The position numbers were made by a program, and so were the translations under genes. Source: Oscillospiraceae bacterium (GTDB lineage Bacteria > Bacillota > Clostridia > Oscillospirales > Ruminococcaceae). Taken from it: 64,000 nt of DNA. The notes under the pieces were generated by a model. It saw only the letters and a program-made list of their open reading frames with translations, did not search any database and was not told where the DNA came from. This document shows, piece after piece, positions 21,937 to 48,327 of this stretch. Numbering within the stretch: position 1 is the first letter of the stretch; each line of letters begins with the position of its first letter. The DNA lies in the NCBI GenBank assembly GCA_031260665.1, contig JAISLD010000007.1:30654-94653 (forward strand), written 5' to 3'.

Positions 21937-22230
21937 TTTTGGCTTTTTAATTCGCAGAGATTCCACTCCTGCGGAGCGGCAAGGGCTATTGCCTCTCGGA
22001 CACCGAACGCTCCCCGTTGTGGGGAGCGTTTTGGTTTTTTAATTCGCAGAGATTTCACTCCTGAGGGAGCGGCAAGGGCTATTGCCCCTCGGGCACCGAA
22101 CGCTCCCCGTTGTGGGGAGCGTTTTGGCTTTTTAATTTGCAGAGATTTCACTCCTGAGGGAGCGGCAAGGGCTATTGCCCCTCGGACACCGAACGCTCCC
22201 CGTTGTGGGGAGCGTTTTGGCTTTTATTTA
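21937..22230. repeat. tandem array, 3.2 copies of a 92-93-bp unit, each with an intrinsic terminator hairpin
   Basis: Units at 21937-22028, 22029-22121 and 22122-22214, plus a 16-bp partial copy. Each unit has CGCTCCCC-GTTGT-GGGGAGCG followed by TTTTGGCTTTTT, and the reverse complement of repeat module 3B (GGCAATAGCCCTTGCCGCTCCC..CAGGAGTGAAATCTCTGCGAATTAAAAA). Confidence 0.9.
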
Positions 22231-25149
22231 ACTGTTCAATGCGATGATAAGCGCGGCATTAAGTGCCGAGAGTTTGACCGACAACGTGCGTTCGTTGACC
22301 ACGATTGCTTCGTTTATCTCGGTTCTCTCGGTGAAGCTGAGTTTAAGCGGCAACTCGTTCTCGCTCTTAAGTCCGTTTGCTTTTACTTGCTCAAGCCACA
22401 CAAACGGGTCTTTGCCGCCGATTGTCAGCCCTATCGGATACCACGCCGCTGTTTCCTCGGCGATTGTTTGGCACATATAGAGGGCAATGCTGAAGCTCCG
22501 TTCTTTGTTGCCAAACGGCAACAACACGTCAAAGCCGCTGATTGTGAAGTGCTGAACAGAGCCGAGTTTCGCTCCACTGACAGGGCAGGTTGTGCCGTAA
22601 CCGGGATAGCGAGAGTCACTCGCTGTCGCAAACGCGTAAACCGCAGCCATCGCGTCGTCGCCGTCGTACAAGCGAACCGCCGTTTTACTAAGCTCGGTGA
22701 GCTTATCTGCCGGAACTGTCGTAAAAACAGGCTGCTTGGGCACGCCGTGGTTCAGTCCCTTTGCCGCGAACACAGTCTTTGACACCGCACCGTTCTTCTC
22801 GCCAAATGCCACAAGCTCTAACATTCCGCAGAACCCACGCTTCGTGTGTTCGTTCGTGAGGAGAACCAGCGTTTCGCAGGTTGGGATTTGCTGTGCGTCG
22901 CCGTTCACGATTTCGATTACCTTGCCGTCAGCGTCAAGCAGCGCGTACTTCTCGAAGCCGAAGTCAGCGAACGCGGTCTTTTCGATGACAGACGCGGGAT
23001 TCGTGATAACTCCCCCCAAGTCGCCGAGGTCAAACGTGTACGGGCACGCCTCAAGGTCAAGCCCAAGTTCACGCCCCTTGAACATACTGAACGCGTTTGC
23101 TCGGTTTTTCTCGGGGAGAATCTCCCAGACGATGTTGCAAGGGATATCGTCTGACAACGGAATCGGTATACCGAAAATGTTGAACGCTTTTCTTCTCTCG
23201 TCATAGTCGGCGGCAACACCTTGTTCACGCACATCGGAAATAAACTTTGTGAAAGTTTTTCCTCTCGCAAACTCTTTGGTCATACGGGCGACGGAGTTGT
23301 AGAACGCGTCGTCCCCCGTGAACCGCGCCTGTCTGTCACGAAGCGAGTCGGTCGCGGCTTTGAGGCTGTTAATCGCGATACCCGTGACGTCAATCATCTC
23401 GGTTTCACCGCCGCCCGTGAGGTAGAAGCGAAGGAGCTGATAGTCAATCTCGTATTTGTCCGTGTAGAGTTTGTCATACAACGTGAGGATTGTTTCAAGC
23501 GAAGTTTCGTCGGGGACTTTCGCGTTCTTGACAAAGCGAGAGGTAAGCCGCGTTGACATTTTGCGGAAACCGTTGTATAGCTCAAAATCCTCGTCGCCTG
23601 TTGACTCGCTGGTCACACGCCAGACGTGGCCGCCGTGACGGAACTCATAGAGGAAAACACGTTTGCTGACAATAAAGTCGTCATAAGAATACGAAACGTA
23701 AAAGCTGCTCTGCGTGATATCGGGCAGACGCGCTTTCAGCTTCTCGAGGGCACGGTCGATGTATTCTTTCTGTGCCTCACCGCTCTCGTGTTCGTCGTAA
23801 GATATCTTGCCCTCGTCTTTAAGGCAGGCGTCAACACGGATTTCAGCGTAAGGCACGGGCTTGGTGTCGGGGAACTTTAAGGTGAGATACGACATAAACG
23901 CGTCACACGGAGAGCCTTTCCACGGCGAACCGAACACTGCCTTGTGGATATAGCTGAACGCCTCAAACTCAGGTTCAAAACGAAGCCCGCCATCGGGGCT
24001 GTTCGCTTCAACGATGTTGAGGATTAAAAGCCACTTGTTCGCCTTGATAAACTCGGTCATTATGACACGGATTTGGTCCGCCGCCGCTTTCTCTTGCCCT
24101 TGTCGGATACCCGCGCGGCATACGTTGATGAAGCGTGTCGGCAAGCTGACCCACGCGGGCACTTTGCCTTCGTCGTCGCCACGAGTGATAAGCCCTGTCA
24201 GTTCGTATGTAGCGAACAGGTTGTTCTTTGCGCTCACCACGCCCTCGGCGGCTTTGTCGATAATGCGGTAGGGGAATATAACAGACATTCCGTCTTTTTC
24301 GTGGGAAATAAAGTCGGCTACAGGCTCGCGGTTCTTGAAGAACCTGATGAACGTGTGGTCGTCCTCAACGTGGTTCGCCACTGTATACACCATGTTCAGT
24401 TCTTCACCTGTGACAATGGCTATGTTGAGGGTGCGGCCTTTTATCTCCTCGGTCTGCGCTTTATCGTCGGGGATTTTCTTTTTGAGAAAAGCGAACACAA
24501 CCTCGGGCATATTGAGGAAGTCGCCTTTTTTGCTGTCCATTGTGAGGAAGTTGTCGTGTATGCGGGCATAGACTTCGGGCGGCACTTGGAACGTGACTTC
24601 GGTGCCGAGGAAGAGCGGGCGGTCAACCGAGATATCGGTGACCTCGAGCATTCCGTCCCGGTTCTTGATGTTGAAGCGGAATATGTTTGAACGCATTGTC
24701 AGTTCCTGCACGTTCATAAACACGGACTTTGCACCGACGCCGAAGTGACCCTCGCGGTTCGGGTTGTCGGACACGTTGCGCCCGAAACTCATATAATAGA
24801 TAAACTGCTCAAGCGAGAAGCCCCGTTCGTTGTAAGCGAACGAAATATATCCGTTGTCTTTGAACGTAACGGCAAGCTTATAGTCGCTTTCCGCATACTG
24901 GCAGTCGAAAGCGTTTTGGAAAAGCTCACGAACTACGGATTCTATGGGGTAGTCTTCTACGTTTATCATTGTGTTGTAAAACGAGCGCCCCGAATATATC
25001 TCAGCGAAGTATCCGGCGAATGATTCGCGCACGTCTTTGCTTCGTTCAAGGTTAACCTCAAGCTCTTTTAGAGTTGAAGCCATTCTTTCACGGTTGTTCT
25101 GCGCGTTTGACTCGAAGAAATCTCCAAGTAACTTTTGCACGGTAGCCAT
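22228..25149 (-). CDS. GHKL-superfamily ATPase (sacsin/MORC/HATPase_c_3-like N-terminal domain) with a ~750-aa uncharacterised C-terminal region
   Basis: N-box VVRELFQNAFD (ExxxNxxD), DNGYISF..NERGF, and G2-box GHFGVGAKSVFM. No TM segment or signal peptide. It has its own perfect promoter and SD AAAGGAAA. Confidence 0.6.
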   Translation of the reverse strand: MATVQKLLGDFFESNAQNNRERMASTLKELEVNLERSKDVRESFAGYFAEIYSGRSFYNTMINVEDYPIESVVRELFQNAFDCQYAESDYKLAVTFKDNGYISFAYNERGFSLEQFIYYMSFGRNVSDNPNREGHFGVGAKSVFMNVQELTMRSNIFRFNIKNRDGMLEVTDISVDRPLFLGTEVTFQVPPEVYARIHDNFLTMDSKKGDFLNMPEVVFAFLKKKIPDDKAQTEEIKGRTLNIAIVTGEELNMVYTVANHVEDDHTFIRFFKNREPVADFISHEKDGMSVIFPYRIIDKAAEGVVSAKNNLFATYELTGLITRGDDEGKVPAWVSLPTRFINVCRAGIRQGQEKAAADQIRVIMTEFIKANKWLLILNIVEANSPDGGLRFEPEFEAFSYIHKAVFGSPWKGSPCDAFMSYLTLKFPDTKPVPYAEIRVDACLKDEGKISYDEHESGEAQKEYIDRALEKLKARLPDITQSSFYVSYSYDDFIVSKRVFLYEFRHGGHVWRVTSESTGDEDFELYNGFRKMSTRLTSRFVKNAKVPDETSLETILTLYDKLYTDKYEIDYQLLRFYLTGGGETEMIDVTGIAINSLKAATDSLRDRQARFTGDDAFYNSVARMTKEFARGKTFTKFISDVREQGVAADYDERRKAFNIFGIPIPLSDDIPCNIVWEILPEKNRANAFSMFKGRELGLDLEACPYTFDLGDLGGVITNPASVIEKTAFADFGFEKYALLDADGKVIEIVNGDAQQIPTCETLVLLTNEHTKRGFCGMLELVAFGEKNGAVSKTVFAAKGLNHGVPKQPVFTTVPADKLTELSKTAVRLYDGDDAMAAVYAFATASDSRYPGYGTTCPVSGAKLGSVQHFTISGFDVLLPFGNKERSFSIALYMCQTIAEETAAWYPIGLTIGGKDPFVWLEQVKANGLKSENELPLKLSFTERTEINEAIVVNERTLSVKLSALNAALIIALNS

Positions 25150-37014: not shown

Positions 37015-37043
37015 ATTATACCACGCAGATGTATGCCTGTCAA
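37015..37043 (-). promoter_or_regulatory. sigma-A promoter of mtaD-ahcY, perfect TTGACA-17-TATAAT with TGG
   Basis: On the minus strand, TTGACA is at 37043-37038 and TATAAT at 37020-37015. Confidence 0.7.
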
Positions 37044-37102: not shown

Positions 37103-37131
37103 TTGACTTAATGCGGGTGAGGTGATATAAT
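37103..37131 (+). promoter_or_regulatory. sigma-A type promoter, TTGACT-17-TATAAT, for the three-gene operon
   Basis: TTGACT at 37103-37108 and TATAAT at 37126-37131. SD AAGGTGA lies before the ATG at 37174. Confidence 0.65.
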
Positions 37132-37173
37132 AACGTATATTCTGCGTTTTCAGTCAAACCAAGGTGAAACTTT

Positions 37174-38091
37174 ATGGAAAAGAATCGTTTTTCACGAAAC
37201 AAATATTATGACGGCAAAGAATTGACTGCCGACTTGTTTGAGGGGATAGACAGCTATCACGGCGGTCGGTTGAAAATACTGCTGCGTGTGCTGTTCGGTC
37301 GCGCTGTTATGTGTGGCTGCAACATCAGCGAGCTTTATCCCGACGTCATTCAGGTCAGCGGAGGCGCGGCTGTTGACGGCAGCGGCAACCTCATATACAT
37401 ACCGAAGAACGAGCCGATTCCGCTGAAAGGTCTGCTGAAGAACGGACTGCCGCAGAACCGCGTGCTGAATGTTTGGCTGTCGTTCAACGAGCAAGAGGAC
37501 GACGACGTGACAGCGGAGAAGTACGCTTTCTCGTCGGACGAGCCGACAGGCGGCGTGCTTTTGGCGGCGGTTCGGCTGAACGAGAACGGCACGATTGCCG
37601 CGATTGAGAATCGACGTTTGGCGTTTGATTCGTTTTATCTTCGTGATATACGCCGCGCAATCAGCGCGGACATCGAGGACAAACTGGCGCAAACTCAAAA
37701 AGAGTTTGAAGAGAACAAGCGTCAACTGATAAACAGCATTGAAGCCGAAGCGGAAAACCTGCGCGATGTACCCGCAGTAAGAAGCGGCACGTTTACCATA
37801 AACGCGAGAACACGCTCAAAGAAGTTTTTGTCTGAGGAAATAAAGCTCGACTTAATTGGCAACCCGCAAATCAGCGTCGGTTTTGTCGGCGAATACTCGG
37901 GAAGCACCGAGGTGATTTACGGGGACACAGGTCTGTTCAAAAGAAAAGGCAGGCTTGAGATACAAAGCCAAGCAATCCGTGTTATCAAGCCAAACAATTC
38001 GTTTGTGTTTTGCGTTCAGTTCACCAAGGCGGTGAAAGGCAAGTCGTTTCAGTTTGAGTGGTCGGCAATCGGCGAAACAGAATCAGAGTAA
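37174..38091 (+). CDS. hypothetical protein whose N-terminus resembles baseplate-associated proteins of phage-tail-like clusters
   Basis: RNKYYDGKELTADLFEGIDSYHGGRLKILLRVLFGRAVMCGC fits the RNxYFxGxxLTAxDFxxEQxY...GxGVVCGL pattern. This is recognised from memory only. It has a central coiled coil and a beta-rich C-terminal half. No TM segment or signal peptide. Confidence 0.4.
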   Translation: MEKNRFSRNKYYDGKELTADLFEGIDSYHGGRLKILLRVLFGRAVMCGCNISELYPDVIQVSGGAAVDGSGNLIYIPKNEPIPLKGLLKNGLPQNRVLNVWLSFNEQEDDDVTAEKYAFSSDEPTGGVLLAAVRLNENGTIAAIENRRLAFDSFYLRDIRRAISADIEDKLAQTQKEFEENKRQLINSIEAEAENLRDVPAVRSGTFTINARTRSKKFLSEEIKLDLIGNPQISVGFVGEYSGSTEVIYGDTGLFKRKGRLEIQSQAIRVIKPNNSFVFCVQFTKAVKGKSFQFEWSAIGETESE

Positions 38092-38094
38092 CCA

Positions 38095-40248
38095 ATGGAA
38101 ATAAACTTCGGTTTGACAAAAAACAAGGGCATTTGGGATAAGATGGGCAGTTTTCTCCCCGAGGAGCGCTATCACCCCGAAAAAAGCGAGCCACAAGCAC
38201 AAACGCCCGACACCACACACGAAGAACCTGCCGTGGAAACAGCGGCGGACTTCTTTGCTGTGCCCGAAGCCGCGATAACAGACGAACCCGACGCGCCGAC
38301 CGCACCGACACGCTATCAGTTTTACGCTGATTTCCCCGACAACGGCGGCACGCTTGCCCCGGGCGGTGAGATTGCGGGTCACGAAGACGTGGTAGCTGTG
38401 TCTGAAGTAATAACAGGCAATAATCTGCTGAAAGACGCGTATATAACTTCACCCGAAACCCAGTGCCGCGCCTACTTCAGCGGCGGCAAACCCGTGGCTG
38501 AGGATTTCTCTGTCGGCATAAGTTTTGCTTTAGGCGACACGTTGTTTGACACGGTGCGCCTGACCCTTGACATAAACCTCAAAACGCTGACCGAAACAGG
38601 CGCGTTTGTCTGGGGGCTGCTTGTTGACAATGAACAGCGAAAGATAACCTCGCTGTTTGACGGCGGCGTCCTCACAGTCACAGCGGACACGCCCGTGTTC
38701 GGCAGAACCTGCCTTGTCGCCGCGTTGTCCGACCCCGCTCTCCTCAAGGACAGCGTGGGCTTCGCCTACAAGCCGCCCGTGTTTGATTTCGGTGCCGAAC
38801 GACTTCGCCCCGACCTCGTGTTCCGCGGCGGTGTGAGAGAGCGCGGCGCGTTCTATCCGTTCGGCAAGTCACTTGAAGATAACGCCGAGTTCTACCTCAA
38901 GTGTGACTCTGCGTTCTCGCTAAAATGGTCTGAAATACGTTTGGCGTTTCGCACCGAGATAGAACAACGCGACTTCTCGCTTCGCGCACTCCTCGGTGAA
39001 GAATACGCCGAGGCAATCGACGGGCTTGTCGCCCCAAGCAAACCCAAAAAGCTGAAGCCGAAACGCCGCCCCCCTCAAGTGAAAGTGGAGGACTTTGCCG
39101 CCGAATACTGGAACGGCGCGTTCTTCACGGAGTTTGAGCGCGTGAGATACGACAAAGATATCTTCGCCGAAGAAACCGACCGTCGCCGCGATATCTTGTT
39201 TGAAATACCGTCGGACTTCTCGGAATGTGAAGTGAACGGCGTGCGTGGCTTTTGGGTGCGGTTTCGTCGCACGAACAGCGACATAAAGCCGTTTATCCGC
39301 ACAGAACATTGCCCCAAAATCTCACAGCTTACACTCGGCAGGGCAAAAGTGACAAGCAAAGTCCCCGCGAGTTACATAGTCGGCGAAAACATAACGGAGC
39401 TTAAGCAAGGCGACACGATACTAAGCAAATTGGTTGACAGGGGCACGCTGACCCTCGTGTTTCAGCAGCGTCTGCCGTCTGATATCACCGCGTATTTCAC
39501 CGAGGGTTTGGGTATAACCGCGGTTGATTTCTCCGCTGTCGCCGAGTTTGACCACACAAGCGGGCTCGCAAACGCCGGTGCTGTCCGCGTGAAGAAAGAC
39601 GCGTTGGTTCGTGAAAACGGGCTTGCTTTCGTGACCGTGCCGCTGCTTCAAAACCTTGACAGATTGCCGAAAGCGACCTTCAACGCCGCAATCTGTGAAA
39701 CCGCCGAGGACATTCGCGGCTGCAGCATAACGCCGCTGTCTGTGCCTGTCAGCGCTGCAAATGAAACAGAAACATCAGTATCACTCGGCGTTGACCCCGA
39801 CAGCCTTTGCCGTATGCTTGCGGCGCAGTTCCCGAGTGTGAAAGTGACGGAAGCAAAGCAAGACAGCGAGGGAATGAACATCTTCGCCGATGTGCCGTAT
39901 TCGCGGCTTGATGAGTTGACAAACGGTATCGGCGGCTTTGTCGCGGACACGCTGACCGGTGCGGACTGCCAAGTGTTGCCGCAAACAGTATCAATTGAGA
40001 TTTCCCTCAAACCGGCTCAGCCGGTTCAGCCGGTTCACTCTGTACCATTGCCGCAAGTAGTTGTTGCTCCTGTTGAACCTGAAACTGTTGCTCCCGTTAA
40101 ATCGGAACCTGTTGCTCCCGTTGAGCCTGAACCTGTGATTCAAGAACCGATTAAACTAACTAAGTTAGTTAGACGAAACACCACGTCGCCCGTCATCGGT
40201 GCGGCTCGGCTTGGTACAGGCGCGACAATGGGAGGCGGTGCAGCTTGA
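38095..40248 (+). CDS. hypothetical protein with gp6/baseplate-J-like ('putative baseplate assembly protein', TIGR02243-type) sequence blocks and a Pro/Val/Glu-rich repeat tail
   Basis: Blocks FYPFGKSLEDNAEFYLKCDSAFS, AAEYWNGAFFTEF and EVNGVRGFWVRFRR. C-terminal PAQPVQPV...VAPVEPETVAPVKSEPVAPVEPEPV. It starts 3 nt after the preceding gene. Confidence 0.4.
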   Translation: MEINFGLTKNKGIWDKMGSFLPEERYHPEKSEPQAQTPDTTHEEPAVETAADFFAVPEAAITDEPDAPTAPTRYQFYADFPDNGGTLAPGGEIAGHEDVVAVSEVITGNNLLKDAYITSPETQCRAYFSGGKPVAEDFSVGISFALGDTLFDTVRLTLDINLKTLTETGAFVWGLLVDNEQRKITSLFDGGVLTVTADTPVFGRTCLVAALSDPALLKDSVGFAYKPPVFDFGAERLRPDLVFRGGVRERGAFYPFGKSLEDNAEFYLKCDSAFSLKWSEIRLAFRTEIEQRDFSLRALLGEEYAEAIDGLVAPSKPKKLKPKRRPPQVKVEDFAAEYWNGAFFTEFERVRYDKDIFAEETDRRRDILFEIPSDFSECEVNGVRGFWVRFRRTNSDIKPFIRTEHCPKISQLTLGRAKVTSKVPASYIVGENITELKQGDTILSKLVDRGTLTLVFQQRLPSDITAYFTEGLGITAVDFSAVAEFDHTSGLANAGAVRVKKDALVRENGLAFVTVPLLQNLDRLPKATFNAAICETAEDIRGCSITPLSVPVSAANETETSVSLGVDPDSLCRMLAAQFPSVKVTEAKQDSEGMNIFADVPYSRLDELTNGIGGFVADTLTGADCQVLPQTVSIEISLKPAQPVQPVHSVPLPQVVVAPVEPETVAPVKSEPVAPVEPEPVIQEPIKLTKLVRRNTTSPVIGAARLGTGATMGGGAA

Positions 40249-41261
40249 AGAATCCGCGACACTATGAGTTTGCGGAAGCACAGTTGTCGGCTCGCCGCAA
40301 AAAGAACGCCGCCTTGACCGAATCACGCCGCGAAGAAGTTCGCCGTTCTATTCCCGAAGCAAACAGACTTCTCGACAACATTGCCGACACAGGCACCAAG
40401 ATAGTGCGGCTTATCGGAAGCAAAGGCGACATTCGTGCCGAAGTGGCGAAGATAGAGAAAACCAACAACGAATTACGCAAACAGCTGAAAGACCTGCTTC
40501 GCTCTAACGGCAAGCCCACCGATTATCTCGAGCCGATTTACGACTGCGGCGTTTGCCGCGACAGCGGAGTGGCAAACGGACAGCGCTGCGGCTGCTTCAA
40601 TCTGTTGGTGCGGCAATGTGCCACGAACGAACTGAACGAGCGTTCTCCGCTGAAACTCGCAACGTTTGACACATTCAGCTCCGAGGAATTCAAGGGGGAC
40701 GACCGCCGTTATATTGAAGGGCTGAAGTCTGAGTGTGAACTCTTTGCCGATGAATTCAACCCCGACCCAAACCGACAAACCAACACGGGGCTTCTGTTCA
40801 CAGGGCCACCGGGCACGGGGAAAACCCACCTTGCTCTCGCTATTGCCAACCGCGTCGTTGAACGTGGTCGCGGGTACGGCGTCGTCTATGGTTCGGTGCC
40901 CGACCTGCTTATTCAAGCGGAACACGAGCATTTCCGTAAGTGGGACGACTCACAGGTTGACACGCTCCAGCTTCTTCGTGAGTGTTCGCTGCTGATTCTC
41001 GACGACCTCGGCGTTGAAACACGGACGCCGTTCTACAGTATGACGCTTTACGGCATAATGAACGCGCGTATATGCCGCGGCTTGTCAACAATTGTCAGCA
41101 CCAACCTGAAACTCGAAGAACTGCAAGTGAGATACGACCAGCGGCTGAACTCGCGGCTCGGTGCGTTAAAGCTGATAAGAACACGCGGCAGAGATATGCG
41201 GCTGAAGAAAACCACGGCAAAGCCACCCTACAACGACCACTTGAATGATGTGTGGAATTAA
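40245..41261 (+). CDS. DnaC/DnaI-type AAA+ ATPase (helicase-loader family) with an N-terminal coiled coil and a Zn-ribbon-like motif
   Basis: Walker A LLFTGPPGTGKTHLALAIAN, Walker B LLILDDLGVE, STNL sensor, and CGVCRDSGVANGQRCGC. The TTG start overlaps the upstream TGA (GCTTGAAG), and GGGAGG lies 9 nt upstream. Confidence 0.8.
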   Translation: MKNPRHYEFAEAQLSARRKKNAALTESRREEVRRSIPEANRLLDNIADTGTKIVRLIGSKGDIRAEVAKIEKTNNELRKQLKDLLRSNGKPTDYLEPIYDCGVCRDSGVANGQRCGCFNLLVRQCATNELNERSPLKLATFDTFSSEEFKGDDRRYIEGLKSECELFADEFNPDPNRQTNTGLLFTGPPGTGKTHLALAIANRVVERGRGYGVVYGSVPDLLIQAEHEHFRKWDDSQVDTLQLLRECSLLILDDLGVETRTPFYSMTLYGIMNARICRGLSTIVSTNLKLEELQVRYDQRLNSRLGALKLIRTRGRDMRLKKTTAKPPYNDHLNDVWN

Positions 41262-41268
41262 ACAAAAG

Positions 41269-41303
41269 CCTCTCCCAAACGGGAGAGGTTCTTGTTTTGT
41301 TTT
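41269..41303. terminator. bidirectional intrinsic terminator
   Basis: Stem CCTCTCCC/GGGAGAGG with loop AAAC, preceded by AACAAAAG and followed by TTCTTGTTTTGTTTT. Confidence 0.85.
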
Positions 41304-44300
41304 AGTTCTTAGAACACGCTTCAAGCAGCGCGAGATACCACCCTGCGCTACCTGTGTAGATGCTCCAGCCACCTCGTCCGTACATACTCGGGTTGGTATA
41401 GATGTCGGCCGCGAGATAATACGGTTCGGTCTTATAGTTTTCGTTTCTGCCAAAAGGCGCAATCGCTTTTGCCACGCGTTTCGCGTCTGTCATTCGGTCG
41501 GCTTTCACGAGGGCAAGCCCCAGCCAGACTGCCGCGTGGGTGTACTGACCGCCGTTTTCACGCACACCCGAGGGGTAACTCGCCACATACCCGGGTCGTT
41601 CGTCCGTGTTCTCTCGTGAAAACGGCGGCGAAAACAGGCGCACCACACCGCCGTTTTCGTCAAATAATTCGCGAAGCGCTGTATCAAGCGCAATGTTTAC
41701 GCGGTCTTTGTCGGGCATTGAACAAAGCGAAGCGAACACTTGCGGCAACAAGTCAAGCTTGCAAGAGCGGCTTGCCACACTGCCGAGTTTGCTGCCATCG
41801 TCATAAAACCCTCTGATATATCGGTCTTTCTCCCACGCTTCAGTGTCGAGGTTTTGCTTAAGCCGCACCGAACGGTTAATCAGCGTGTCGCGGTAATCTG
41901 TGTCGCCGCGATACGCCGAGATGAGAGCGAACCGCTCCGCCGCGAGTGCGTAGAACATTGAGCCCCAGACGCTTTCACCCTTGCCGCCTATCCCAACTTC
42001 ATTATAGCCGTCGCACCAATCGCCCCCTCCCATAAGAATCAGCCCGTGTTCCCCCGTCTTGAAGCCGTGTTCAAGCGCACGTTTCGCGTGTTCATAGATA
42101 TCCGCGGTTTCCTCGCTCTCGTTCACTTCAAAGTAACGCTCGTGTTCGTTTGGCCGGAGCGGCGGCGCGTCTAAAAAGCGCGTCTTTATGCCGAGGATAT
42201 CCGCGTCGCCTGTCGTCGCGACGTATTCGGCGAGAACATACGGCAGCCAAAGCAAGTCGTCACAGTATCGGGTGCGAACCCCACGTTTGCCGCCCATTAT
42301 GTCGTGCCACCAATGAAGCACGTCCCCCTCGCGAAACTGCGCCGCCGAATGTCGCACGATTTGCCGACGCGCCGCGTCTTTGTCAAAGCGGCAGACAGCG
42401 AGTGCGTCTTGCAGTTGGTCACGAAAGCCAAACGCCCCCGAGTTTTGATAAAACCCCGTTCGCGCATAAATCCTTGCGCCGAGTGCCTGCCACGGAAGCC
42501 AGTGCGTCGCCATTTCAGCAAAGCGAAAGTCCTTGAACTCGCAGTCTGTCTTGTATCGCGGCGCGTCCGCATAAGGCGTGTTCACCACGGCGCGGCAAAG
42601 CGAGAGCGGGTCGGTCATGTTCTTCGTGAATGAAAGAATAAACTTGATTTTGTCGGTGTGTTTAGGCGGCAACTTCAGCGGCACAGTCGCCGCCGCGATA
42701 AGTCCGCCGCGATTGTCCGCCGTGTTATCTCTCGTGAAGAACGCGTCGCGGCCAAACGTGAAGCCGCACTCGCGGTTCACGGCAAGGCACATCGCACCCG
42801 ACAACGCGCCGTTCCCGTATTGCCGAAGCAGAGCCGCGTGCTTGCTCACCACTTCAGGCGACACAAACCGTGAAGCGGTGCGTTCCACTCCAAGCACAGG
42901 CTCGGTGTAAAACGCAAGCGATGTGTTCACTTCTTTTGCTGATTTGTTTGTGACGGTGACTGTTATCTCTTTCGCCGCGCCTTTCTTATACACGTTCACC
43001 TCGGTCGTAAAAGCCAAGTCCTCATAAGCGGAGCGATATGCCGCCCTGTTTGGGCTGAACAGCGTTACCGCACCGTCAACAATGTCAACAAACGCGTGTT
43101 CCGCGCTTAGAAGCAACATCTCGCCTTTGTTGTCGGCGCAGAGGTCGTTTTGCCACGGTGTCAGCTTGTTTTCCCTTGAGTTGAACGCCCAGCTGAAGCC
43201 AAGCGACCTCTCGGACACCAAGCACCCGAACGACGAGTTGGCAAGCACATTGCACCACGGCGTGTCAGTCGGTTCTTCGATGATAAACAAGCCGTTTTCC
43301 TCAAACCTGTTGCCGTTTCCCGTCAAGCCGAGAGGTTCGCACGGGATAACGGGGAATCGCCGCCTTGTGTCGGTCTGTTCGCTTTGAAGTTCAAGCGACT
43401 TGATTTCGTACCGCGAAAACGCGTGGATTAGCGACAGGGTTTCTTTGTCGGTGTTTTCCTCGTCAATGACAAAGATTTCCGTGCCCGCTTCACCGCGTGT
43501 CGCCTGCGCTTCTCTCACCGCTTCGCTGTTTTTGCAAATTGCCGCCACATCAAACTGCACGCCACACGCTGAGAGCGACTTTTTCAGTTCAGCGGCATAC
43601 GCAAGCGTGTCGCCCCCGCCGCTGACCGTGATGAGCGGAACGTCCCCCGATATGCCGAACCGCCACAACCCCGACAACGACAATCTGTTGTCACGCACTG
43701 CGGTTTCATCACGAAGCGGCGTCCAAAGAAGATACGGCAGCACTGTTTCAGAGAGTCTGCCTCTCACGGTTTCGGGCGGAAGCGGCGACGTCACTTCTGG
43801 CCCGGGTGCGTAGTCCTCCATGTCGCGGATTTCCTCCGCTGTTTCTATCACGTCTGCTTCCGTGTCGCCAAAGCAAGCGAACATCACAGCTTCGACCTGT
43901 GAATGTGGGTTTATCTCAAGTTCATAACCAAGGAGAGCGCAAGGCGACACGGCCTCGCCTCCGTCGCCACCGTCAAGGCAGTGGAACGCCGAGAATATGC
44001 CGCCGTTTCGTTCTTCCACGCGTTCGCGGTCAAACGAAAACGTGTACGGTTGTTCTACATCAACAAAGCCAACAGCCGCGAATATCTCTTTGTCGCCCGT
44101 CCGTTCTTTCCGCGAGAATATGACGAGATTCTCGGCTTTCAGCCACTTTGCCTTGAGAAACATATCGGAGAAAGCAGGGTGGGCGGTGAAGTCGCGAGGG
44201 GAGGAAAGCATAGGCTCGAGATACGCGGCAAGCGTGAGGATTCGTTTTGTGCCGCCCGTGTTCTCCACAGCAAAGCGGCGGATTTCCGCAGGAATATTCG

Positions 44301-47300
44301 GCAAAGCAAAGACCTGCATACCTGCCCGTATTCCGCGAAAGTTGCGGTAATACTCGGCGCAGTTTGATAAAAACTGCACGGAATACTCGTTCTTCTTCGT
44401 GTTCGTGCTTTCGTCAGCGAAGAAGAGCGCGGCTCTGTCGTTCTCACACAAGGCAAAGAGGTTGCCGCGTGGGTGATACAAGTCGTCGGTTCGCTTCCAA
44501 ACGGAAACGCCGCCAAAGTAGCAGTCATAGACGCCCGTGTCGGTCATAATCAGCGATACCGCCCCGTTTGACACGACGCGCGCCCTCGGCGTGTATCGCG
44601 AGATATCGCCGACATAAGTCGCCGCTCCGTCATAAAGCGGGTCGTCGCCGCCGCCTTTCGGTGAGTCAAGCACAGTTTCACCGATGATTATTTCTTCTTC
44701 AAGGAACTCCGAAGCCGCCGCCATTCGCTCGTCCGACATAAACAGCCGCCTGATTCTCCCGTCAAGAAGCGCGTTTGTCGCACCGGCAATCGACATACCG
44801 ACGTGATGTGCCATGTGGCTTTTGACTAAAGCGTAACCGCCGCCTGTTCTTCGCTTGGTGAAGTCCGCCGCTTCGTAGAACCCGTATCTCTCGTGGAACA
44901 ATCCGAGTTTCTGCAGTTTCGCGAGATTGTTGAACGCGCCAATCGGGTCAAGCGAGAGCGTGAGGTAGGTTGAATACGGCGAGATGACGCGTTCACGGTT
45001 CATTCCCGCTTTCAGCGCCGCCGCGTCTGTGCCGTGCGCCTTGTACTGATAGTTCAGCATACGGTCAAAGGCATAGTATCCACTCTCTGACACGCCGTAC
45101 GGCAGCCCCGTTTCTTCGGCGCGTTTCTTCTGTACATAGAGAGAATAGCGTATCGCCTCATATCCCGCGCCGCCTTCTTTTGACGACAGGAATATCTCAG
45201 GCATAAAGTATTCAAAGCAGGTGCCTGTCCACGCGACAGGCGCGGCAAACCTGCCGCACTTGCCCATTGTCCGACCGAGTGCCTGCCAATGTTCTCTGCC
45301 TGCCGCGCCGAGTGCCACCGCCACATAAGACGTGAGCCTTGCTTCCGACATCAGCAGGTCATACTTGTGCCGTGAGAACGCCTGCTCATCGGTGTCATAG
45401 CCGATACTGAAGAGCTTTCGCTTCTTGTCGTAGAACGCGCCGATATCAGTTGACGATATCAGCTTTTCCACACGAAAAACCAAATCGTCGGGCGACTTGA
45501 CCGACAACAGCGACTGCTTCAGCACAATAAGGCAAGCGAGAAAGTTGCCGCTGTCAACACTTGAAACAAACGGCGAGATGACCTTCAGCGTTTTTGTGTC
45601 GTACCAGTTGAAGAGATTGCCGCGCCACTTCTCCAGTTTCTCGATTGTAGAAATTGTTTTCGCGGCACGTTCGGTCATTCCTCGCGGCGTGATATACCCA
45701 AGTGCCTGCGCCGACACGATTGCAAGCAGATACATTCCGATGTTGGTTGGTGAGGTGTTGAAGCAAACGCGGTATACAGGCGAGTACTGCACGTTGTCGG
45801 GGGGCAAGAACCGCGTTTCTGCGTTCACGTAGTCTTCGTAGAACTCAAACATCATCTCGGCTTGCTGTTCCAGCTCAAACCTTGCGCCGTCACTCAGCTT
45901 CGCGTGTTCGCTTTGACGCGTGCCGTCAGCCCACGCCATTATCGGAAGCACCGACGAAAAGAACAGACCAATCACTATCGCCGACATATCTCCGCGATAC
46001 GCCGACAACGCCAAGAACGCCACACCAAGTGCTTCCGCAGTCAGCAAATGTGAAAAGCCGCCGCGTTTCTTCTCAAAAGCCGACGACACCGTCCAGTCCA
46101 GCAAACCTCGCTTTGACAGAAGCATACGCCACATCGTGCCGACTGCCGCGTCCAGTGACACGAGAGCGGCTTTCGGCGCAAGCACAAGCTCTAACGCGCA
46201 TTGCCGCAGAAGCGTGGTCACTTGTGTGGCGACAGGCGAGTAGAACCGGCGTTTAAGCGCGTAACGCCCACCACGTGCCAATCCCGGCACAAATCCCGTG
46301 AAGAACGGCGTGATAAGAGCAAGAAACCCTGTGAGAACAAACAGCGGTTCAGCAAACCAGACACCGTAAAACAAACAAAGCATAACGATAAACGGCGTAG
46401 CCGCACGTCTCGCGTTGTCAAAAAGTTTCCACCTTGTCAGTCCGCTGAATCTCCCGTCAAACACATACGAAAAGTTTTGCAGGTCGCCGCGATACCAGCG
46501 GTGCTGTCGGGCAAAGTACGCCGCGCTGTTTGGAGGAAACCCGTCAGAGAACTCCACACCACCGGCAAAGAGAACGCCGCACGCTCCCCCCTCGAGTATA
46601 TCGTGTGACAACACGCGTTCCCTCGCAAAAGCGTTCTCGCCGCATTTGTCAAGGAACAAGTCCACGTTGATTAAGCCTTTCCCCGTGAACGTGCCCTCAC
46701 CGAAGCAGTCTTGATATAACTCCGACGAAAAGCAGTCGTAGCTTGACGCGCCGGCACTGCCGCCACACCCCGCCATAACCCGCGAGAACCCCGTACGGAG
46801 GTATGCCGACAACTGCACGGTTATCCGCGGTGAGATTATCCCAAAGCGGCGGTTAGCGGGGTGAAGCGCCACCGCAACCAAATCTTTCACGCCGCCGAGT
46901 GTCGGCACCGTATCAAAGTCAAGCGCACAGACAAACCGCACGCCATCAAGCGCCGTCAAGTCGCCCGCTATCAGTGAAAAACCGCGTTCTTTCGGTTTGC
47001 CGTCAGGCCGAAGCAGCCGCATAAGCGACAAAAGCGCGCCGCGTTTGCGCTCCTCGCCTTGCCACTTGCGCTGTGTCTTTGAAAAACTGCGTTTGCGAAT
47101 AAGCACAACAAAGCCGTCCTCTTTGTCGCACACCGCTTTCTCCGCAAACGACAGCAGTGTTTCGTCTGTTTCCGATGTTTCGTGCTTAGACGGCGGCAAA
47201 TCACACAGCAAACAAAAGCCGATGTTCTCGCCGCGATTCTTGATTTTTGCGGCGCGCAGCTTCGCCACACCCTCGGCTATGTCCTCCTCAGAGGATACAA

Positions 47301-48327
47301 GCGTCGATATGGCGACCAGCGTCTTTGCCGCGTCGGGTATTTCTTTCAAGTCAACGGCGTAGTCTCGCCGCTTGAACTTTGTGGTTTTGATAGTCACGAT
47401 GTCGGCAATCGGCTTGACCACCGCCGCTATCGCAAAATAGCTGACGACAGCACCCCACGCGCCCGTGCCCGTCACCCACGAGAGCGCCGCCGACAGCGCG
47501 CCGATAAGCAGAAGCAGCGACATTATATATCGTCTTAGGTTTCGATAAGGAAACACCAAGCGGAAATCGCCGCCGATTATCTCGCCGACGTCACGCGGTT
47601 GCTTTGGCAGCGGCACAACCTTTGAACCGCCGTCTGTGCCGGTGACGGCAAAGACTTCGCCGTATTCGGCACGACCGACAGAACGGCGCACGTATTCACC
47701 CGCAAGCCGCGATTCGTCAATGCCTATTTCCTCCGCGACTTCCGCCGTCATTGTCCGATAAAGCGCACGCGTTCTCTCGTCGGCAAGCGTGTAACCCTCG
47801 GCTTGCCGCAAAACACGCTCAATCGGGTTTATCCGCAAGAACTCCGCGCCGTCTATGTCGGACAACGCAAAGATTTTGGCGGCGGCACTTGTGTCGGATT
47901 CGGCGTGCTTCAGCACCGAGAACTTTGTCTGCCACAGCAACGTGTCTATATCGGCACCACGGAGAGCAAACCGTGCCGCCGCCCCGTTTGCCGCCGTCAA
48001 CAGTCCGTCCGCTGTCATCTCGTCGGCCGACAATGAGGCGAGAGCGCCGCCGAGAAGCGGCTCGGCGTTCTCGTCAATCGTCACGCGTATGTTCTTGTTT
48101 GCTTTCAGCATCGCCGATATTTCTTTATCGAGCAGGCGGCGGTCGCTTGCGCCGACACTTTGAAGAAAACGGCGGCGATAGGTGCGAAGCCGCGGGAATA
48201 ACGAGCGAAGTTTGACGCGCTTTGTTTCGGTGTTCAAAGTGAAACTCCTGTTTAATGTTAGACTAATCGGCTTTATTATCGGCGAAGTTGGGGATTTTAT
48301 ACAGAAGTTTTCACTCAAACGCACCAT
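41302..48327 (-). CDS. cyclic beta-1,2-glucan synthase-like multidomain protein (membrane GT84-like glycosyltransferase, alpha/alpha-barrel middle domain, C-terminal GH94 phosphorylase-like domain)
   Basis: GT region LSHDILEGG and QHRWYRGDLQN, with multiple TM helices. Middle region RFLPPDNVQYSPVYRVCFNTSPTNIGMYLL. GH94-like blocks FGFRDQLQDALA, HWWHD..GVRTRYCDDLLWLPY, GGGDWCDGYN and YTHAAVW. The N-terminal start is uncertain because there is no clear SD at 48327. Confidence 0.78.
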   Translation of the reverse strand: MVRLSENFCIKSPTSPIIKPISLTLNRSFTLNTETKRVKLRSLFPRLRTYRRRFLQSVGASDRRLLDKEISAMLKANKNIRVTIDENAEPLLGGALASLSADEMTADGLLTAANGAAARFALRGADIDTLLWQTKFSVLKHAESDTSAAAKIFALSDIDGAEFLRINPIERVLRQAEGYTLADERTRALYRTMTAEVAEEIGIDESRLAGEYVRRSVGRAEYGEVFAVTGTDGGSKVVPLPKQPRDVGEIIGGDFRLVFPYRNLRRYIMSLLLLIGALSAALSWVTGTGAWGAVVSYFAIAAVVKPIADIVTIKTTKFKRRDYAVDLKEIPDAAKTLVAISTLVSSEEDIAEGVAKLRAAKIKNRGENIGFCLLCDLPPSKHETSETDETLLSFAEKAVCDKEDGFVVLIRKRSFSKTQRKWQGEERKRGALLSLMRLLRPDGKPKERGFSLIAGDLTALDGVRFVCALDFDTVPTLGGVKDLVAVALHPANRRFGIISPRITVQLSAYLRTGFSRVMAGCGGSAGASSYDCFSSELYQDCFGEGTFTGKGLINVDLFLDKCGENAFARERVLSHDILEGGACGVLFAGGVEFSDGFPPNSAAYFARQHRWYRGDLQNFSYVFDGRFSGLTRWKLFDNARRAATPFIVMLCLFYGVWFAEPLFVLTGFLALITPFFTGFVPGLARGGRYALKRRFYSPVATQVTTLLRQCALELVLAPKAALVSLDAAVGTMWRMLLSKRGLLDWTVSSAFEKKRGGFSHLLTAEALGVAFLALSAYRGDMSAIVIGLFFSSVLPIMAWADGTRQSEHAKLSDGARFELEQQAEMMFEFYEDYVNAETRFLPPDNVQYSPVYRVCFNTSPTNIGMYLLAIVSAQALGYITPRGMTERAAKTISTIEKLEKWRGNLFNWYDTKTLKVISPFVSSVDSGNFLACLIVLKQSLLSVKSPDDLVFRVEKLISSTDIGAFYDKKRKLFSIGYDTDEQAFSRHKYDLLMSEARLTSYVAVALGAAGREHWQALGRTMGKCGRFAAPVAWTGTCFEYFMPEIFLSSKEGGAGYEAIRYSLYVQKKRAEETGLPYGVSESGYYAFDRMLNYQYKAHGTDAAALKAGMNRERVISPYSTYLTLSLDPIGAFNNLAKLQKLGLFHERYGFYEAADFTKRRTGGGYALVKSHMAHHVGMSIAGATNALLDGRIRRLFMSDERMAAASEFLEEEIIIGETVLDSPKGGGDDPLYDGAATYVGDISRYTPRARVVSNGAVSLIMTDTGVYDCYFGGVSVWKRTDDLYHPRGNLFALCENDRAALFFADESTNTKKNEYSVQFLSNCAEYYRNFRGIRAGMQVFALPNIPAEIRRFAVENTGGTKRILTLAAYLEPMLSSPRDFTAHPAFSDMFLKAKWLKAENLVIFSRKERTGDKEIFAAVGFVDVEQPYTFSFDRERVEERNGGIFSAFHCLDGGDGGEAVSPCALLGYELEINPHSQVEAVMFACFGDTEADVIETAEEIRDMEDYAPGPEVTSPLPPETVRGRLSETVLPYLLWTPLRDETAVRDNRLSLSGLWRFGISGDVPLITVSGGGDTLAYAAELKKSLSACGVQFDVAAICKNSEAVREAQATRGEAGTEIFVIDEENTDKETLSLIHAFSRYEIKSLELQSEQTDTRRRFPVIPCEPLGLTGNGNRFEENGLFIIEEPTDTPWCNVLANSSFGCLVSERSLGFSWAFNSRENKLTPWQNDLCADNKGEMLLLSAEHAFVDIVDGAVTLFSPNRAAYRSAYEDLAFTTEVNVYKKGAAKEITVTVTNKSAKEVNTSLAFYTEPVLGVERTASRFVSPEVVSKHAALLRQYGNGALSGAMCLAVNRECGFTFGRDAFFTRDNTADNRGGLIAAATVPLKLPPKHTDKIKFILSFTKNMTDPLSLCRAVVNTPYADAPRYKTDCEFKDFRFAEMATHWLPWQALGARIYARTGFYQNSGAFGFRDQLQDALAVCRFDKDAARRQIVRHSAAQFREGDVLHWWHDIMGGKRGVRTRYCDDLLWLPYVLAEYVATTGDADILGIKTRFLDAPPLRPNEHERYFEVNESEETADIYEHAKRALEHGFKTGEHGLILMGGGDWCDGYNEVGIGGKGESVWGSMFYALAAERFALISAYRGDTDYRDTLINRSVRLKQNLDTEAWEKDRYIRGFYDDGSKLGSVASRSCKLDLLPQVFASLCSMPDKDRVNIALDTALRELFDENGGVVRLFSPPFSRENTDERPGYVASYPSGVRENGGQYTHAAVWLGLALVKADRMTDAKRVAKAIAPFGRNENYKTEPYYLAADIYTNPSMYGRGGWSIYTGSAGWYLALLEACSKN

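What the first reader, a model, noticed from the sequence alone, without database searches (positions are those of the whole stretch)
37103..41303. Three-gene operon: two baseplate-wedge-like proteins translationally coupled to a DnaC/DnaI-type AAA+ loader, with no other tail or injection-system genes nearby
What the sequence shows: a near-consensus promoter (TTGACT-17-TATAAT, 37103-37131) and SD AAGGTGA lead into three packed ORFs. These are 37174-38091 (305 aa), 38095-40248 (717 aa, 3-nt gap) and 40245-41261 (338 aa). The third starts at a TTG that overlaps the upstream TGA, with GGGAGG inside the upstream gene. A strong bidirectional terminator follows at 41269-41303.

ORF1 opens with RNKYYDGKELTADLFEGIDSYHGGRLKILLRVLFGRAVMCGC. 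ORF2 contains FYPFGKSLEDNAEFYLKCDSAFS, AAEYWNGAFFTEF and EVNGVRGFWVRFRR. From memory, these match blocks of proteins encoded in phage-tail-like and contractile-injection loci: the RNxYFxGxxLTxxDF N-termini, and the FxPFG..FY / WEYWNG..W / xWxRxR blocks of gp6/baseplate-J-like 'putative baseplate assembly protein'. ORF3 is a clear DnaC/DnaI-family ATPase, with GPPGTGKTH, LLILDDLG and a CxxC...CxC ribbon.

I see no sheath, tube, spike, gp25, tape-measure, lysis or integrase gene anywhere in the 64 kb. The neighbours are housekeeping (mtaD-ahcY) and a glucan synthase. Composition looks native.

Inference: this is either a domesticated baseplate-derived module driven by a loader-type ATPase, which I do not know as a described system, or an unusual replacement for the DnaB/DnaD partner that normally precedes dnaI in Firmicutes. 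Either would be new.
Basis: partly seen in the sequence, partly recalled or inferred. Interest (0 to 1): 0.75.

Follow-up and report, generated by a model that had tools for sequence, protein, structure and literature searches.

The report
Orphan injection-system baseplate genes beside helicase loader
Two intact genes derived from a phage-tail-like injection machine (a short fibre-like protein and a baseplate wedge protein) sit, alone and far from any other such gene, in the operon slot where related bacteria keep the DnaD/DnaB-type partner of the DNA helicase loader; it is a real and odd gene arrangement, but it is seen only once and nothing yet shows that the parts work together.

Summary

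- **ORF1** is a full-length relative of a 299-aa protein encoded in a complete contractile-injection-system (CIS) cluster. It has the Cis13/Cis19-type baseplate-docking N-domain.
- **ORF2** is a Cis11-class (gp6-like) baseplate protein. 40 of its 46 distant relatives match TIGR02243, and its model matches solved Cis11 structures (E about 1e-12). Both of its termini are replaced by disordered, repeat-containing tails.
- **ORF3** is an intact DnaC/DnaI-type helicase loader. In 8 of 8 related genomes its homologue directly follows a DnaB_2 (DnaD/DnaB-type) gene. Here ORF1 and ORF2 occupy that slot and show no DnaB_2 similarity.

The other ~40 genes I checked in the 64 kb are housekeeping or have no family match. 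None is a CIS, phage, integrase or transposase gene. The operon's composition is native.

My best reading is that a rearrangement placed an orphan Cis13-Cis11 pair upstream of an ordinary helicase-loader gene. A functional link between the pair and ORF3 is neither shown nor excluded. No close relative of this lineage is sequenced, so co-conservation could not be tested. Interest is moderate.

The parts
37103..37131 (+). Sigma-70-type promoter TTGACT-17-TATAAT with TG extension, serving ORF1-ORF3
   Evidence: 11/12 match. It lies in the 208-bp divergent intergenic region.
37161..37167 (+). Shine-Dalgarno AAGGTGA, 6 nt before the ORF1 ATG
   Evidence: Sequence read.
37174..38091 (+). ORF1, 305 aa: short Cis13/Cis19-type fibre-like protein, full length relative to its family
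   Evidence: It aligns end to end (28% identity; phmmer 92.8 bits) with the 299-aa first gene of the complete CIS cluster L091. No Pfam, PHROG or PADLOC match.
37183..37509 (+). ORF1 N-terminal baseplate-docking domain (aa 4-112) with the invariant RNxYYxGK motif
   Evidence: NCBIfam NF053767 CIS13_fam, E 1.3e-9, 37.8 bits, profile positions 2-108. All 11 invariant residues of 16 family N-domains are kept. Weak profile matches to the N-termini of Cis19 (7b5h_AA, E 0.008) and 9wt0_a (E 0.0035).
37630..37767 (+). ORF1 long predicted helix (aa 153-198), a possible coiled-coil stalk, followed by a beta-rich C-domain (aa 200-301)
   Evidence: Secondary structure of the single-sequence AF2 model. 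This is the only part with pLDDT near 80; the model is poor overall. The coiled-coil reading is inference.
38095..40248 (+). ORF2, 717 aa: Cis11-class (gp6-like) baseplate wedge protein, starting 3 nt after the ORF1 stop and in the same frame
   Evidence: Exhaustive phmmer gave 47 relatives, and 40 of 46 match TIGR02243. The closest relatives lie directly after gp25 in CIS clusters, or are fused to it. Foldseek top three hits are Cis11-type chains: 7b5h_AH, 7aeb_G and 9qgl_A, E about 1e-12.
38314..39654 (+). ORF2 conserved core (aa 74-520). The best-conserved domain is aa ~235-415 (38797-39339), carrying FYPFG, EYWNG and GFWVRFR
   Evidence: 26% identity over 400 aa to P0123. pLDDT is 85-96 for aa 240-420. 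All near-invariant family residues are kept. The subfamily HMM scores 128 bits over aa 221-471.
38095..38313 (+). ORF2 N-terminal acidic, Pro-rich disordered segment (aa 1-73), replacing the helical N-terminal region of relatives
   Evidence: pLDDT below 50 for aa 24-71; alignment A3; composition.
40012..40136 (+). Tandem DNA repeats (9 bp x 2.9 and 24 bp x 3.1) encoding the Pro/Val-rich linker of the ORF2 C-terminal tail (aa ~636-717, disordered)
   Evidence: Tandem Repeats Finder; pLDDT below 50 for aa 580-717.
40230..40235 (+). Shine-Dalgarno GGGAGG for ORF3, inside ORF2
   Evidence: Sequence read.
40245..41261 (+). ORF3, 338 aa: DnaC/DnaI-type AAA+ replicative helicase loader (PRK06835 family). 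Its TTG start overlaps the ORF2 TGA (TTGA)
   Evidence: NF005304 scores 219.6 bits against a 215-bit cutoff. It has 259 homologues, the best about 40% identical. All 34 invariant family residues are present, including C101, C104, C115 and C117, Walker A G187-T194 and Walker B D253/D254.
41267..41300 (.). Two-way intrinsic-terminator-like hairpin shared with the convergent 2341-aa GH94 gene
   Evidence: 10-pair stem with 6 G-C pairs and T-rich tails on both strands.

Best explanation
The three genes form one transcription unit in the core chromosome of a deep-branching, spore-forming clostridial lineage (Oscillospiraceae/Ruminococcaceae-like).

ORF3 is the lineage's ordinary DnaC/DnaI-type replicative helicase loader.

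ORF1 and ORF2 are an orphan pair from a contractile injection system. ORF1 is a short fibre-like protein whose N-domain is the module that docks trimeric peripheral proteins (Cis13, Cis19) onto the baseplate. ORF2 is a Cis11-class wedge protein, the component those fibres dock onto.

Most likely a rearrangement placed this pair between the promoter and the loader gene, in the slot where relatives keep the DnaB_2 (DnaD/DnaB-type) gene. The DnaB_2 gene would then lie elsewhere in the unseen part of the genome.

ORF3 keeps its normal replication role and is expressed from the operon promoter through the TTGA stop/start overlap. ORF1 and ORF2 probably still bind each other. They are kept intact by selection, either as accessory or alternative baseplate-periphery parts for an injection system encoded elsewhere, or for a stand-alone role.

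Shown: the homologies, the operon anatomy, the displaced slot and the native composition. Inferred: the rearrangement history, the ORF1-ORF2 interaction, the role of ORF3, and the lack of a functional link between the pair and ORF3.
For: - ORF1 and ORF2 each have a homologue in one and the same complete CIS cluster, L091. That cluster runs cap, PAAR-like, sheath, tubes, spike, gp25, ORF2-like, J-like, Cis12-like, Cis15 AAA.
- ORF1-type N-domain proteins lie beside Cis15, cap, Cis12, PAAR or sheath genes in metagenome loci, and never beside DnaC or DnaB_2.
- The ORF2 model matches solved Cis11 chains. Cis13 docks on Cis11 in the Anabaena structure (PMC8894136).
- ORF3 passes its equivalog cutoff and keeps all 34 invariant residues.
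- Its homologues in 8 of 8 distinct genomes directly follow a DnaB_2 gene in varied chromosomal contexts.
- ORF1 and ORF2 are long intact ORFs that keep the family-invariant residues, with no frameshifted remnants.
- GC3, codon usage and tetranucleotide signature are native.
- The whole window is otherwise housekeeping, with no integrase or transposase.
Against: - This is a single occurrence, so selection on the arrangement cannot be measured.
- An orphan Cis11-class gene away from its cluster is not a described pattern.
- The tight packing (3-nt gap, then a stop/start overlap) is what one expects of proteins made together for a common purpose. In relatives the DnaB_2-loader gap is 9-18 nt.
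- ORF2 has lost the conserved N-terminal helical region and the last C-terminal subdomain of its relatives, so it may not fit a canonical baseplate.
- Whether the genome has any injection system or any DnaB_2 gene is unknown.
Confidence: 0.5

Rival explanations
1. Decaying relic. ORF1 and ORF2 are the last surviving pieces of an injection-system cluster that has otherwise been deleted. They have no current function and are transcribed only because they lie upstream of an essential loader gene.
For: No other CIS gene lies within 37 kb upstream or 23 kb downstream. ORF2 has lost the family's N-terminal helical region and its last C-terminal subdomain, which are replaced by disordered, low-complexity, tandem-repeat sequence. 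ORF2 reaches no curated baseplate model.
Against: Both ORFs are uninterrupted (305 and 717 codons) and keep every invariant or near-invariant family residue. No frameshifted fragments are present. The native codon usage suggests long residence, over which an unselected 2.1-kb ORF would be expected to break.
Confidence: 0.22
2. Exapted functional module. The baseplate-derived pair works together with the loader ATPase. It either takes over the adaptor role of the missing DnaD/DnaB-type protein in helicase loading, or forms a new machine that uses a DnaC-type AAA+ in place of the usual Cis15 ATPase.
For: The pair sits in exactly the DnaB_2 slot (8 of 8 relatives have DnaB_2 there). Its stop overlaps the ORF3 start. 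Normal CIS clusters also pair these baseplate genes with an AAA+ ATPase. In B. subtilis a short helix at the end of the disordered DnaB tail binds the DnaI AAA+ domain (PMC13326638). ORF2 likewise ends in a long disordered tail with one short predicted helix, aa 686-695.
Against: ORF1 and ORF2 have no DnaD/DnaB similarity and no YxxxIxxxW motif. ORF3 resembles Cis15 only at the P-loop. DnaC-clade AAA+ proteins are not known to act on protein assemblies (established knowledge). The tail-helix parallel is too short to test. There is no second occurrence.
Confidence: 0.08
3. Assembly artefact. The junction between the injection-system genes and the loader gene is a chimeric join in a metagenome assembly.
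For: The source appears to be a metagenome-type contig that is not retrievable here. ORF1 and ORF2 have no orthologues.
Against: GC3, codon usage and tetranucleotide signature are uniform across the region. A functional-looking junction (SD inside ORF2, TTGA overlap, correct ORF3 N-terminus aligning from residue 5 with homologues) is very unlikely to arise from a misjoin. The promoter and terminator neatly bracket the unit.
Confidence: 0.03
4. Ordinary dnaB-dnaI operon. ORF1 or ORF2 is just a very divergent DnaD/DnaB-type primosomal protein.
For: Position only: it is directly upstream of, and coupled to, the loader gene.
Against: No PF07261 match at E up to 1. hhalign against a six-genome DnaB_2 profile gives probabilities of 0.07% (ORF2) and 0.15% (ORF1). 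The two YxxxIxxxW motifs present in every partner are absent. There is positive evidence for CIS homology instead.
Confidence: 0.01

Closest known systems
Cis11-Cis13 baseplate periphery of contractile injection systems (Anabaena tCIS, PDB 7b5h; AlgoCIS 7aeb; Photorhabdus PVC 9qgl; Afp 6rao)
   Same: ORF2 shares fold and sequence blocks with Cis11. ORF1 shares the N-terminal docking domain of Cis13/Cis19-type trimeric fibre-like proteins. In the solved Anabaena structure Cis13 docks on Cis11 (PMC8894136).
   Different: No sheath, tube, spike, gp25, Cis12, tape measure, cap or Cis15 gene accompanies them within 64 kb. ORF2 lacks a detectable Baseplate_J domain and has new disordered termini. 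ORF1 is only 305 aa with no membrane helix. In the window ORF1 lies directly before ORF2, whereas in L091 the two homologues are about 8 kb apart.
The split Cis11-like subfamily represented by P0123, P0124, P0126 and P0134 (707-776 aa) in uncultured-bacterium CIS clusters L007, L008, L089 and L091
   Same: These are ORF2's nearest relatives: 24-26% identity over 400-440 aa, with similar length and domain order.
   Different: They always lie directly after gp25, or are fused to it. Where the contig extends further, a J-like gene, a Cis12-like gene and a classic AAA ATPase follow.
dnaB-dnaI operon of Bacillus subtilis and the DnaB_2 (PF07261) plus PRK06835 loader pair of Clostridia (e.g. C. difficile CD3653-CD3654)
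   Same: ORF3 is a full member of the loader family and is the last gene of a short operon. In relatives the upstream gene is the loader's adaptor (PMC13326638, PMC7561715).
   Different: Here the upstream genes are injection-system proteins with no DnaD/DnaB domain.
Cis15/Afp15/Pvc15 AAA+ ATPase of injection-system clusters
   Same: It is an AAA+ ATPase encoded just downstream of the baseplate genes.
   Different: Cis15 is a classic-clade AAA (PF00004, CDC48-like). ORF3 is an initiator-clade DnaC/IstB-type protein with a zinc-ribbon helicase-binding N-domain, and similarity is limited to the P-loop.

Membership tests
CIS13 family (NCBIfam NF053767), fibre-like baseplate-attached protein | N-terminal baseplate-docking domain with the RNxYYxGK motif | tested here: met
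   E 1.3e-9 over aa 4-112. All 11 invariant residues of 16 N-domains are present.
CIS13 family (NCBIfam NF053767), fibre-like baseplate-attached protein | Whole-protein score above the curated cutoff (370 bits) | tested here: not met
   37.8 bits, with only the first 108 of 392 profile positions matched. ORF1 belongs to a shorter (~300 aa) relative family, together with the L091 299-aa protein.
CIS13 family (NCBIfam NF053767), fibre-like baseplate-attached protein | Encoded within a contractile-injection gene cluster | tested here: not met
   ORF2 is the only other CIS gene in the 64 kb. The rest of the genome is not visible.
CIS13 family (NCBIfam NF053767), fibre-like baseplate-attached protein | Forms trimers that dock on Cis11 | not testable with these tools
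   No complex prediction is available, and the single-sequence model is poor (pLDDT 40.5).
Cis11 / gp6 / TIGR02243 'putative baseplate assembly protein' | Significant sequence homology to family members | tested here: met
   47 phmmer hits with E up to 1e-3 among 1.84 billion proteins, and 40 of 46 are TIGR02243 proteins.
Cis11 / gp6 / TIGR02243 'putative baseplate assembly protein' | Fold match to solved Cis11 structures | tested here: met
   Foldseek E about 1e-12, probability 1.00, to 7b5h_AH, 7aeb_G and 9qgl_A. TM-scores are low (0.21-0.24) because this is a multidomain model with disordered ends.
Cis11 / gp6 / TIGR02243 'putative baseplate assembly protein' | Scores above the curated TIGR02243 cutoff, or has the Baseplate_J (PF04865) domain | tested here: not met
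   ORF2 gives no hit at E up to 1 in NCBIfam or Pfam. The same is true of its closest relative in a bona fide cluster, P0134.
Cis11 / gp6 / TIGR02243 'putative baseplate assembly protein' | Gene lies next to gp25 and Cis12-type genes | tested here: not met
   Neither is present in the window.
DnaC/DnaI-type helicase loader (NCBIfam NF005304, PRK06835) | Score above the curated cutoff | tested here: met
   219.6 against 215 bits, covering 12-325 of 338 aa.
DnaC/DnaI-type helicase loader (NCBIfam NF005304, PRK06835) | Intact AAA+ motifs and the four-Cys zinc module of the N-domain | tested here: met
   All 34 invariant columns of a 33-sequence alignment are kept.
DnaC/DnaI-type helicase loader (NCBIfam NF005304, PRK06835) | Directly preceded by a DnaB_2 (PF07261) gene | tested here: not met
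   Relatives have it in 8 of 8 cases. The window has no DnaB_2 anywhere.
DnaC/DnaI-type helicase loader (NCBIfam NF005304, PRK06835) | Binds and loads the replicative helicase | not testable with these tools
   This needs biochemistry or genetics.
DnaD/DnaB primosomal proteins (PF07261, DDBH2) | DDBH2 domain with the YxxxIxxxW motif, in ORF1 or ORF2 | tested here: not met
   No Pfam hit; hhalign probability 0.07% and 0.15%; motif absent.
Known anti-phage defence systems (PADLOC-DB) | Any component model matches ORF1 or ORF2 | tested here: not met
   ORF1 and ORF2 have no match. ORF3 has only P-loop-level hits.

The most novel reading that the evidence does not exclude
In this lineage the DnaD/DnaB-type adaptor of the helicase loader has been replaced by two exapted injection-system baseplate proteins. 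ORF2 would hold ORF3 through the short helix at the end of its new disordered C-terminal tail, as the B. subtilis DnaB tail holds DnaI. The ORF1-ORF2 complex would supply the scaffold or anchoring function.
Probability: 0.06. Interest if true: 0.85.

Novelty: new variant of a known kind. Interest (0 to 1): 0.4.

Why it matters
If the pair turns out to be functional on its own, it would be an example of phage-tail-like baseplate parts being kept and reused outside any injection machine. That would bear on how such machines are dismantled and exapted.

If it also proved to be linked to the helicase loader, it would show that the poorly conserved adaptor step of Firmicute helicase loading can be filled by an unrelated protein.

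As things stand, its practical value is threefold:
- It adds two very divergent, well-delimited members to the Cis13-like and Cis11-like families.
- It documents that the DnaB_2-loader gene pair, otherwise constant in these clostridia, can be broken.
- It flags a lineage worth sequencing completely.

Tried and rejected
- **Source contig.** Looking up the source contig through ORF1 found nothing on record.
- **Genome scan with ORF3 alone.** It found no relative.
- **Genome scan with the five-sequence ORF2 alignment.** No stretch was conserved enough to search with.
- **Word-indexed searches.** ORF1 and ORF2 returned only themselves.
- **Single-sequence PDB searches.** ORF1 and ORF2 found nothing.
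- **ORF1 structure.** The single-sequence model was too poor (pLDDT 40.5) to use for a fold search, so none was run.
- **Phage, plasmid and viral collections.** No ORF1 or ORF2 relatives among phage genomes, no ORF2 relative among plasmids, and no ORF1-family relative among viral contigs. BFVD gave no credible fold match for ORF2. A prophage or tailocin origin is therefore not supported.
- **Gene-fusion remnant.** An 8-residue resemblance between the ORF2 N-terminus and the DnaB_2 partners (NKGIWDKM against NSGIWGTM) was considered. I rejected it because hhalign gives 0.07% and the same segment aligns with the SYxPE start of baseplate relatives.
- **Synteny through AhcY.** The 80 loci showed only mtaD-ahcY conserved, so an insertion-site comparison was not possible.
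- **DnaA boxes.** None lies near the promoter.
Full report
**1. The observation**

All three ORFs are present at the stated coordinates: 37174-38091 (305 aa), 38095-40248 (717 aa) and 40245-41261 (338 aa, TTG start). ORF1 and ORF2 are in the same frame, separated by TAA plus one codon. The ORF3 TTG overlaps the ORF2 TGA, with GGGAGG nine bases upstream.

The intergenic region holds two divergent, near-perfect sigma-70 promoters. The one at 37103-37131 on the + strand scores 11/12. The one at 37043-37015 on the - strand scores 12/12 and serves mtaD-ahcY. A 10-pair hairpin at 41267-41290 has T-rich tails on both strands. The anatomy of a compact three-gene unit is therefore confirmed.

**2. What ORF1 is**

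Pfam, PHROGs and PADLOC give nothing. NCBIfam matches residues 4-112 to the first 108 positions of the CIS13 family model (E 1.3e-9, 37.8 bits against a 370-bit cutoff). A word-indexed search of 5.8 billion protein clusters returned only ORF1 itself.

A full-length homologue turned up indirectly. It is the 299-aa first gene of locus L091, a complete contractile-injection cluster. It matches ORF1 at 92.8 bits and aligns end to end at 28% identity, C-terminal domain included. It carries the same CIS13-type N-domain.

A metagenome scan with this pair found 16 more loci. In five of them (L093, L097, L098, L100, L105) the N-domain protein (usually 435-650 aa) lies beside Cis15-type AAA, Pvc16 cap, Cis12-like, PAAR-like or sheath genes. 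It never lies beside a DnaC-like or DnaB_2 gene. R8, N9, Y11, Y12, G14, K15, G48, G64, A66, D68 and G71 are invariant across the 16 sequences, and ORF1 has all of them.

A profile of the family weakly matches the N-termini of two proteins from solved injection-system structures: Cis19 (All3314; 18 chains, meaning trimers at six positions) and a PKD-domain protein, 9wt0. In the Anabaena system the N-domains of the fibre-like Cis13 bind the baseplate through the C-terminal extension of Cis11, and Cis19 forms six trimers around the baseplate (PMC8894136).

The single-sequence AF2 model of ORF1 is poor (pLDDT 40.5). I use only its secondary structure: a beta-rich N-domain, one helix at 153-198, and a beta-rich C-domain.

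Conclusion: ORF1 is an intact, short member of the fibre-like, baseplate-docking class. It is not a wedge protein.

**3. What ORF2 is**

No curated model matches ORF2, and the word-indexed search found only ORF2 itself. The exhaustive phmmer scan of 1.84 billion representatives found 47 relatives. Forty of the 46 others match TIGR02243, 'putative baseplate assembly protein'.

The closest relatives (P0123, P0124, P0126, P0134; 707-776 aa) share 24-26% identity with ORF2 over 400-440 residues. P0123 is fused to a gp25 domain and follows a spike gene. The other three lie directly after gp25. Where the contig extends, a J-like gene, a Cis12-like gene and a classic AAA ATPase follow.

An AF2 model built on 44 sequences is confident for residues ~240-420 (pLDDT 85-96) and moderate for 74-230 and 450-540. 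It is disordered at 1-71 and 580-717. Its only significant Foldseek matches in the PDB are the Cis11-type chains of the Anabaena, Algoriphagus and Photorhabdus systems (E about 1e-12, probability 1.00). The viral structure library gives nothing credible.

A profile of full-length relatives hits Cis11, Afp11, Pvc11 and T4 gp6 strongly, but mostly through the C-terminal Baseplate_J part. A profile trimmed to the ORF2 region hits only Anabaena Cis11 residues 531-609 (E 9e-4). ORF2's core therefore probably corresponds to the middle domains of long Cis11 proteins; this mapping is inference.

ORF2 keeps every near-invariant family residue. It lacks the helical N-terminal segment and the last C-terminal subdomain of its relatives. 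These are replaced by acidic/Pro-rich and Pro/Val-rich disordered sequence, the latter partly encoded by 9-bp and 24-bp tandem repeats.

**4. What ORF3 is**

ORF3 passes the PRK06835 equivalog cutoff (219.6 against 215 bits). It has 259 homologues, at best about 40% identical, from Ruminococcus and Oscillospiraceae MAGs. It keeps all 34 invariant residues of a 33-sequence alignment, including the four zinc-module cysteines and Walker A and B. Its similarity to the Cis15-type AAA of injection clusters is limited to the P-loop.

**5. The anomaly**

In eight distinct genomes the ORF3 homologue directly follows a 317-341-aa PF07261 (DnaB_2) gene, with a gap of 9-18 nt or a short overlap. The surrounding chromosomal contexts vary. 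The genomes are L001/2, L003/4, L005/6, L065, L078, L082, L109/110 and L111/112.

In the window that slot holds ORF1 and ORF2. These have no DnaB_2 similarity: no Pfam hit, hhalign probabilities of 0.07% and 0.15%, and no YxxxIxxxW motif. No DnaB_2 gene or remnant exists anywhere in the 64 kb, and no frameshifted fragments lie in or around the operon.

**6. Context**

Every other gene I checked in the window is housekeeping or has no family match. The housekeeping genes include a hybrid sensor kinase, P-type ATPase, YabQ, YbeY, Era, RecO, MutS2, LigA, ComM-like, AhcY, MtaD, a GH94 giant protein, the F-ATPase operon, AspRS and HisRS. Six-frame searches with sheath, tube, spike, gp25, cap, Cis12 and Cis15 proteins hit only ORF1 and ORF2.

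GC3 is 0.60-0.63 against 0.63 +/- 0.03 for the window. Codon-usage distance and tetranucleotide signature (|z| below 1.5) are also native.

The lineage is deep and unsampled. The best AhcY match in 185,579 species genomes is 78% identical, MtaD 53% and LigA 51%. Only mtaD-ahcY is syntenic. The lack of ORF1/ORF2 orthologues is therefore partly a sampling effect, and co-conservation cannot be tested.

**7. Interpretation**

The data do not show any functional tie between the baseplate pair and the loader.

The simplest account is a rearrangement. It would have put an orphan Cis13-like/Cis11-like pair into the loader operon and displaced the DnaB_2 gene to an unseen part of the genome. ORF3 would still act as the helicase loader, and ORF1-ORF2 would be maintained for a baseplate-type or exapted role (confidence about 0.5).

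A decaying relic is the main rival (0.22). Loss of ORF2's terminal domains favours it. The intact ORFs, conserved residues and native codon usage count against it.

A true functional module with ORF3 remains possible but is unsupported (0.08). Its most concrete form is that ORF2's new disordered tail, with a short helix at 686-695, mimics the DnaI-binding tail of B. subtilis DnaB (PMC13326638). That can be tested by complex prediction and two-hybrid assay.

No paper in the library links baseplate proteins with helicase loaders.

**8. Verdict**

This is a real, unusual, single-copy gene arrangement made of divergent members of known families. It is a new variant of a known kind, of moderate interest.

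Noticed in passing
window 22228-25149 (- strand): A 973-aa ORF with native codon usage has no Pfam family at E up to 1e-5. It also has no match in any of the 88 loci held at that point (L001-L088).
   Followed up: no
window 41302-48327 (- strand): A giant 2341-aa protein has recognisable Pfam domains (GH94 supersandwich and catalytic) only in the last ~650 residues. The first ~1650 residues have no Pfam match at E up to 1e-5. It resembles cyclic beta-1,2-glucan synthase-type proteins and converges on the same terminator as ORF3.
   Followed up: no
window 37015-37043 (- strand): A perfect 12/12 sigma-70 promoter (TTGACA-17-TATAAT with TG extension) faces mtaD-ahcY. It lies back to back with the ORF1 promoter, only ~60 bp away.
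   Followed up: partly
window, whole 64 kb: DnaA-box-like 9-mers (TTATCCACA with up to 1 mismatch) number 21 against 7.8 +/- 2.6 expected, and 16 of them are on the + strand. They are scattered, not clustered, and none lies near the ORF1 promoter.
   Followed up: no
L003 3833-5900 versus L004 5217-5900: Two contigs share an identical DnaB_2-loader pair but differ upstream. L004 has an intact 227-aa sigma factor. L003 has only its C-terminal 117 aa, preceded by a large serine recombinase and small genes. This looks like a skin-like element interrupting a sigK-type gene. L001 shows the same pattern.
   Followed up: no
L065, L078, L082 (about 6820-11230): In three Lachnospiraceae MAGs the DnaB_2-loader pair lies about 1.2 kb upstream of ahcY, with one ~396-399-aa gene between. 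In the window the loader operon is also next to mtaD-ahcY, but divergently oriented. This could be an old linkage or a coincidence.
   Followed up: partly
L091 10001-13848; L008 599-4040; L089 923-4419: In this group of uncultured-bacterium injection clusters the Cis11 role appears split or duplicated. A 707-776-aa protein carries the N-terminal and middle domains (the ORF2-like protein). It is followed by a separate 371-477-aa protein whose N-terminus matches the TIGR02243 N-terminus (tested for the L091 477-aa protein only).
   Followed up: partly
L008 6689-8668: The last gene of one injection cluster (659 aa) has a ComEC/Rec2-type metallo-beta-lactamase region (E 4e-12). That is an unusual neighbour for a Cis15 ATPase and may be a cargo or effector.
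   Followed up: no
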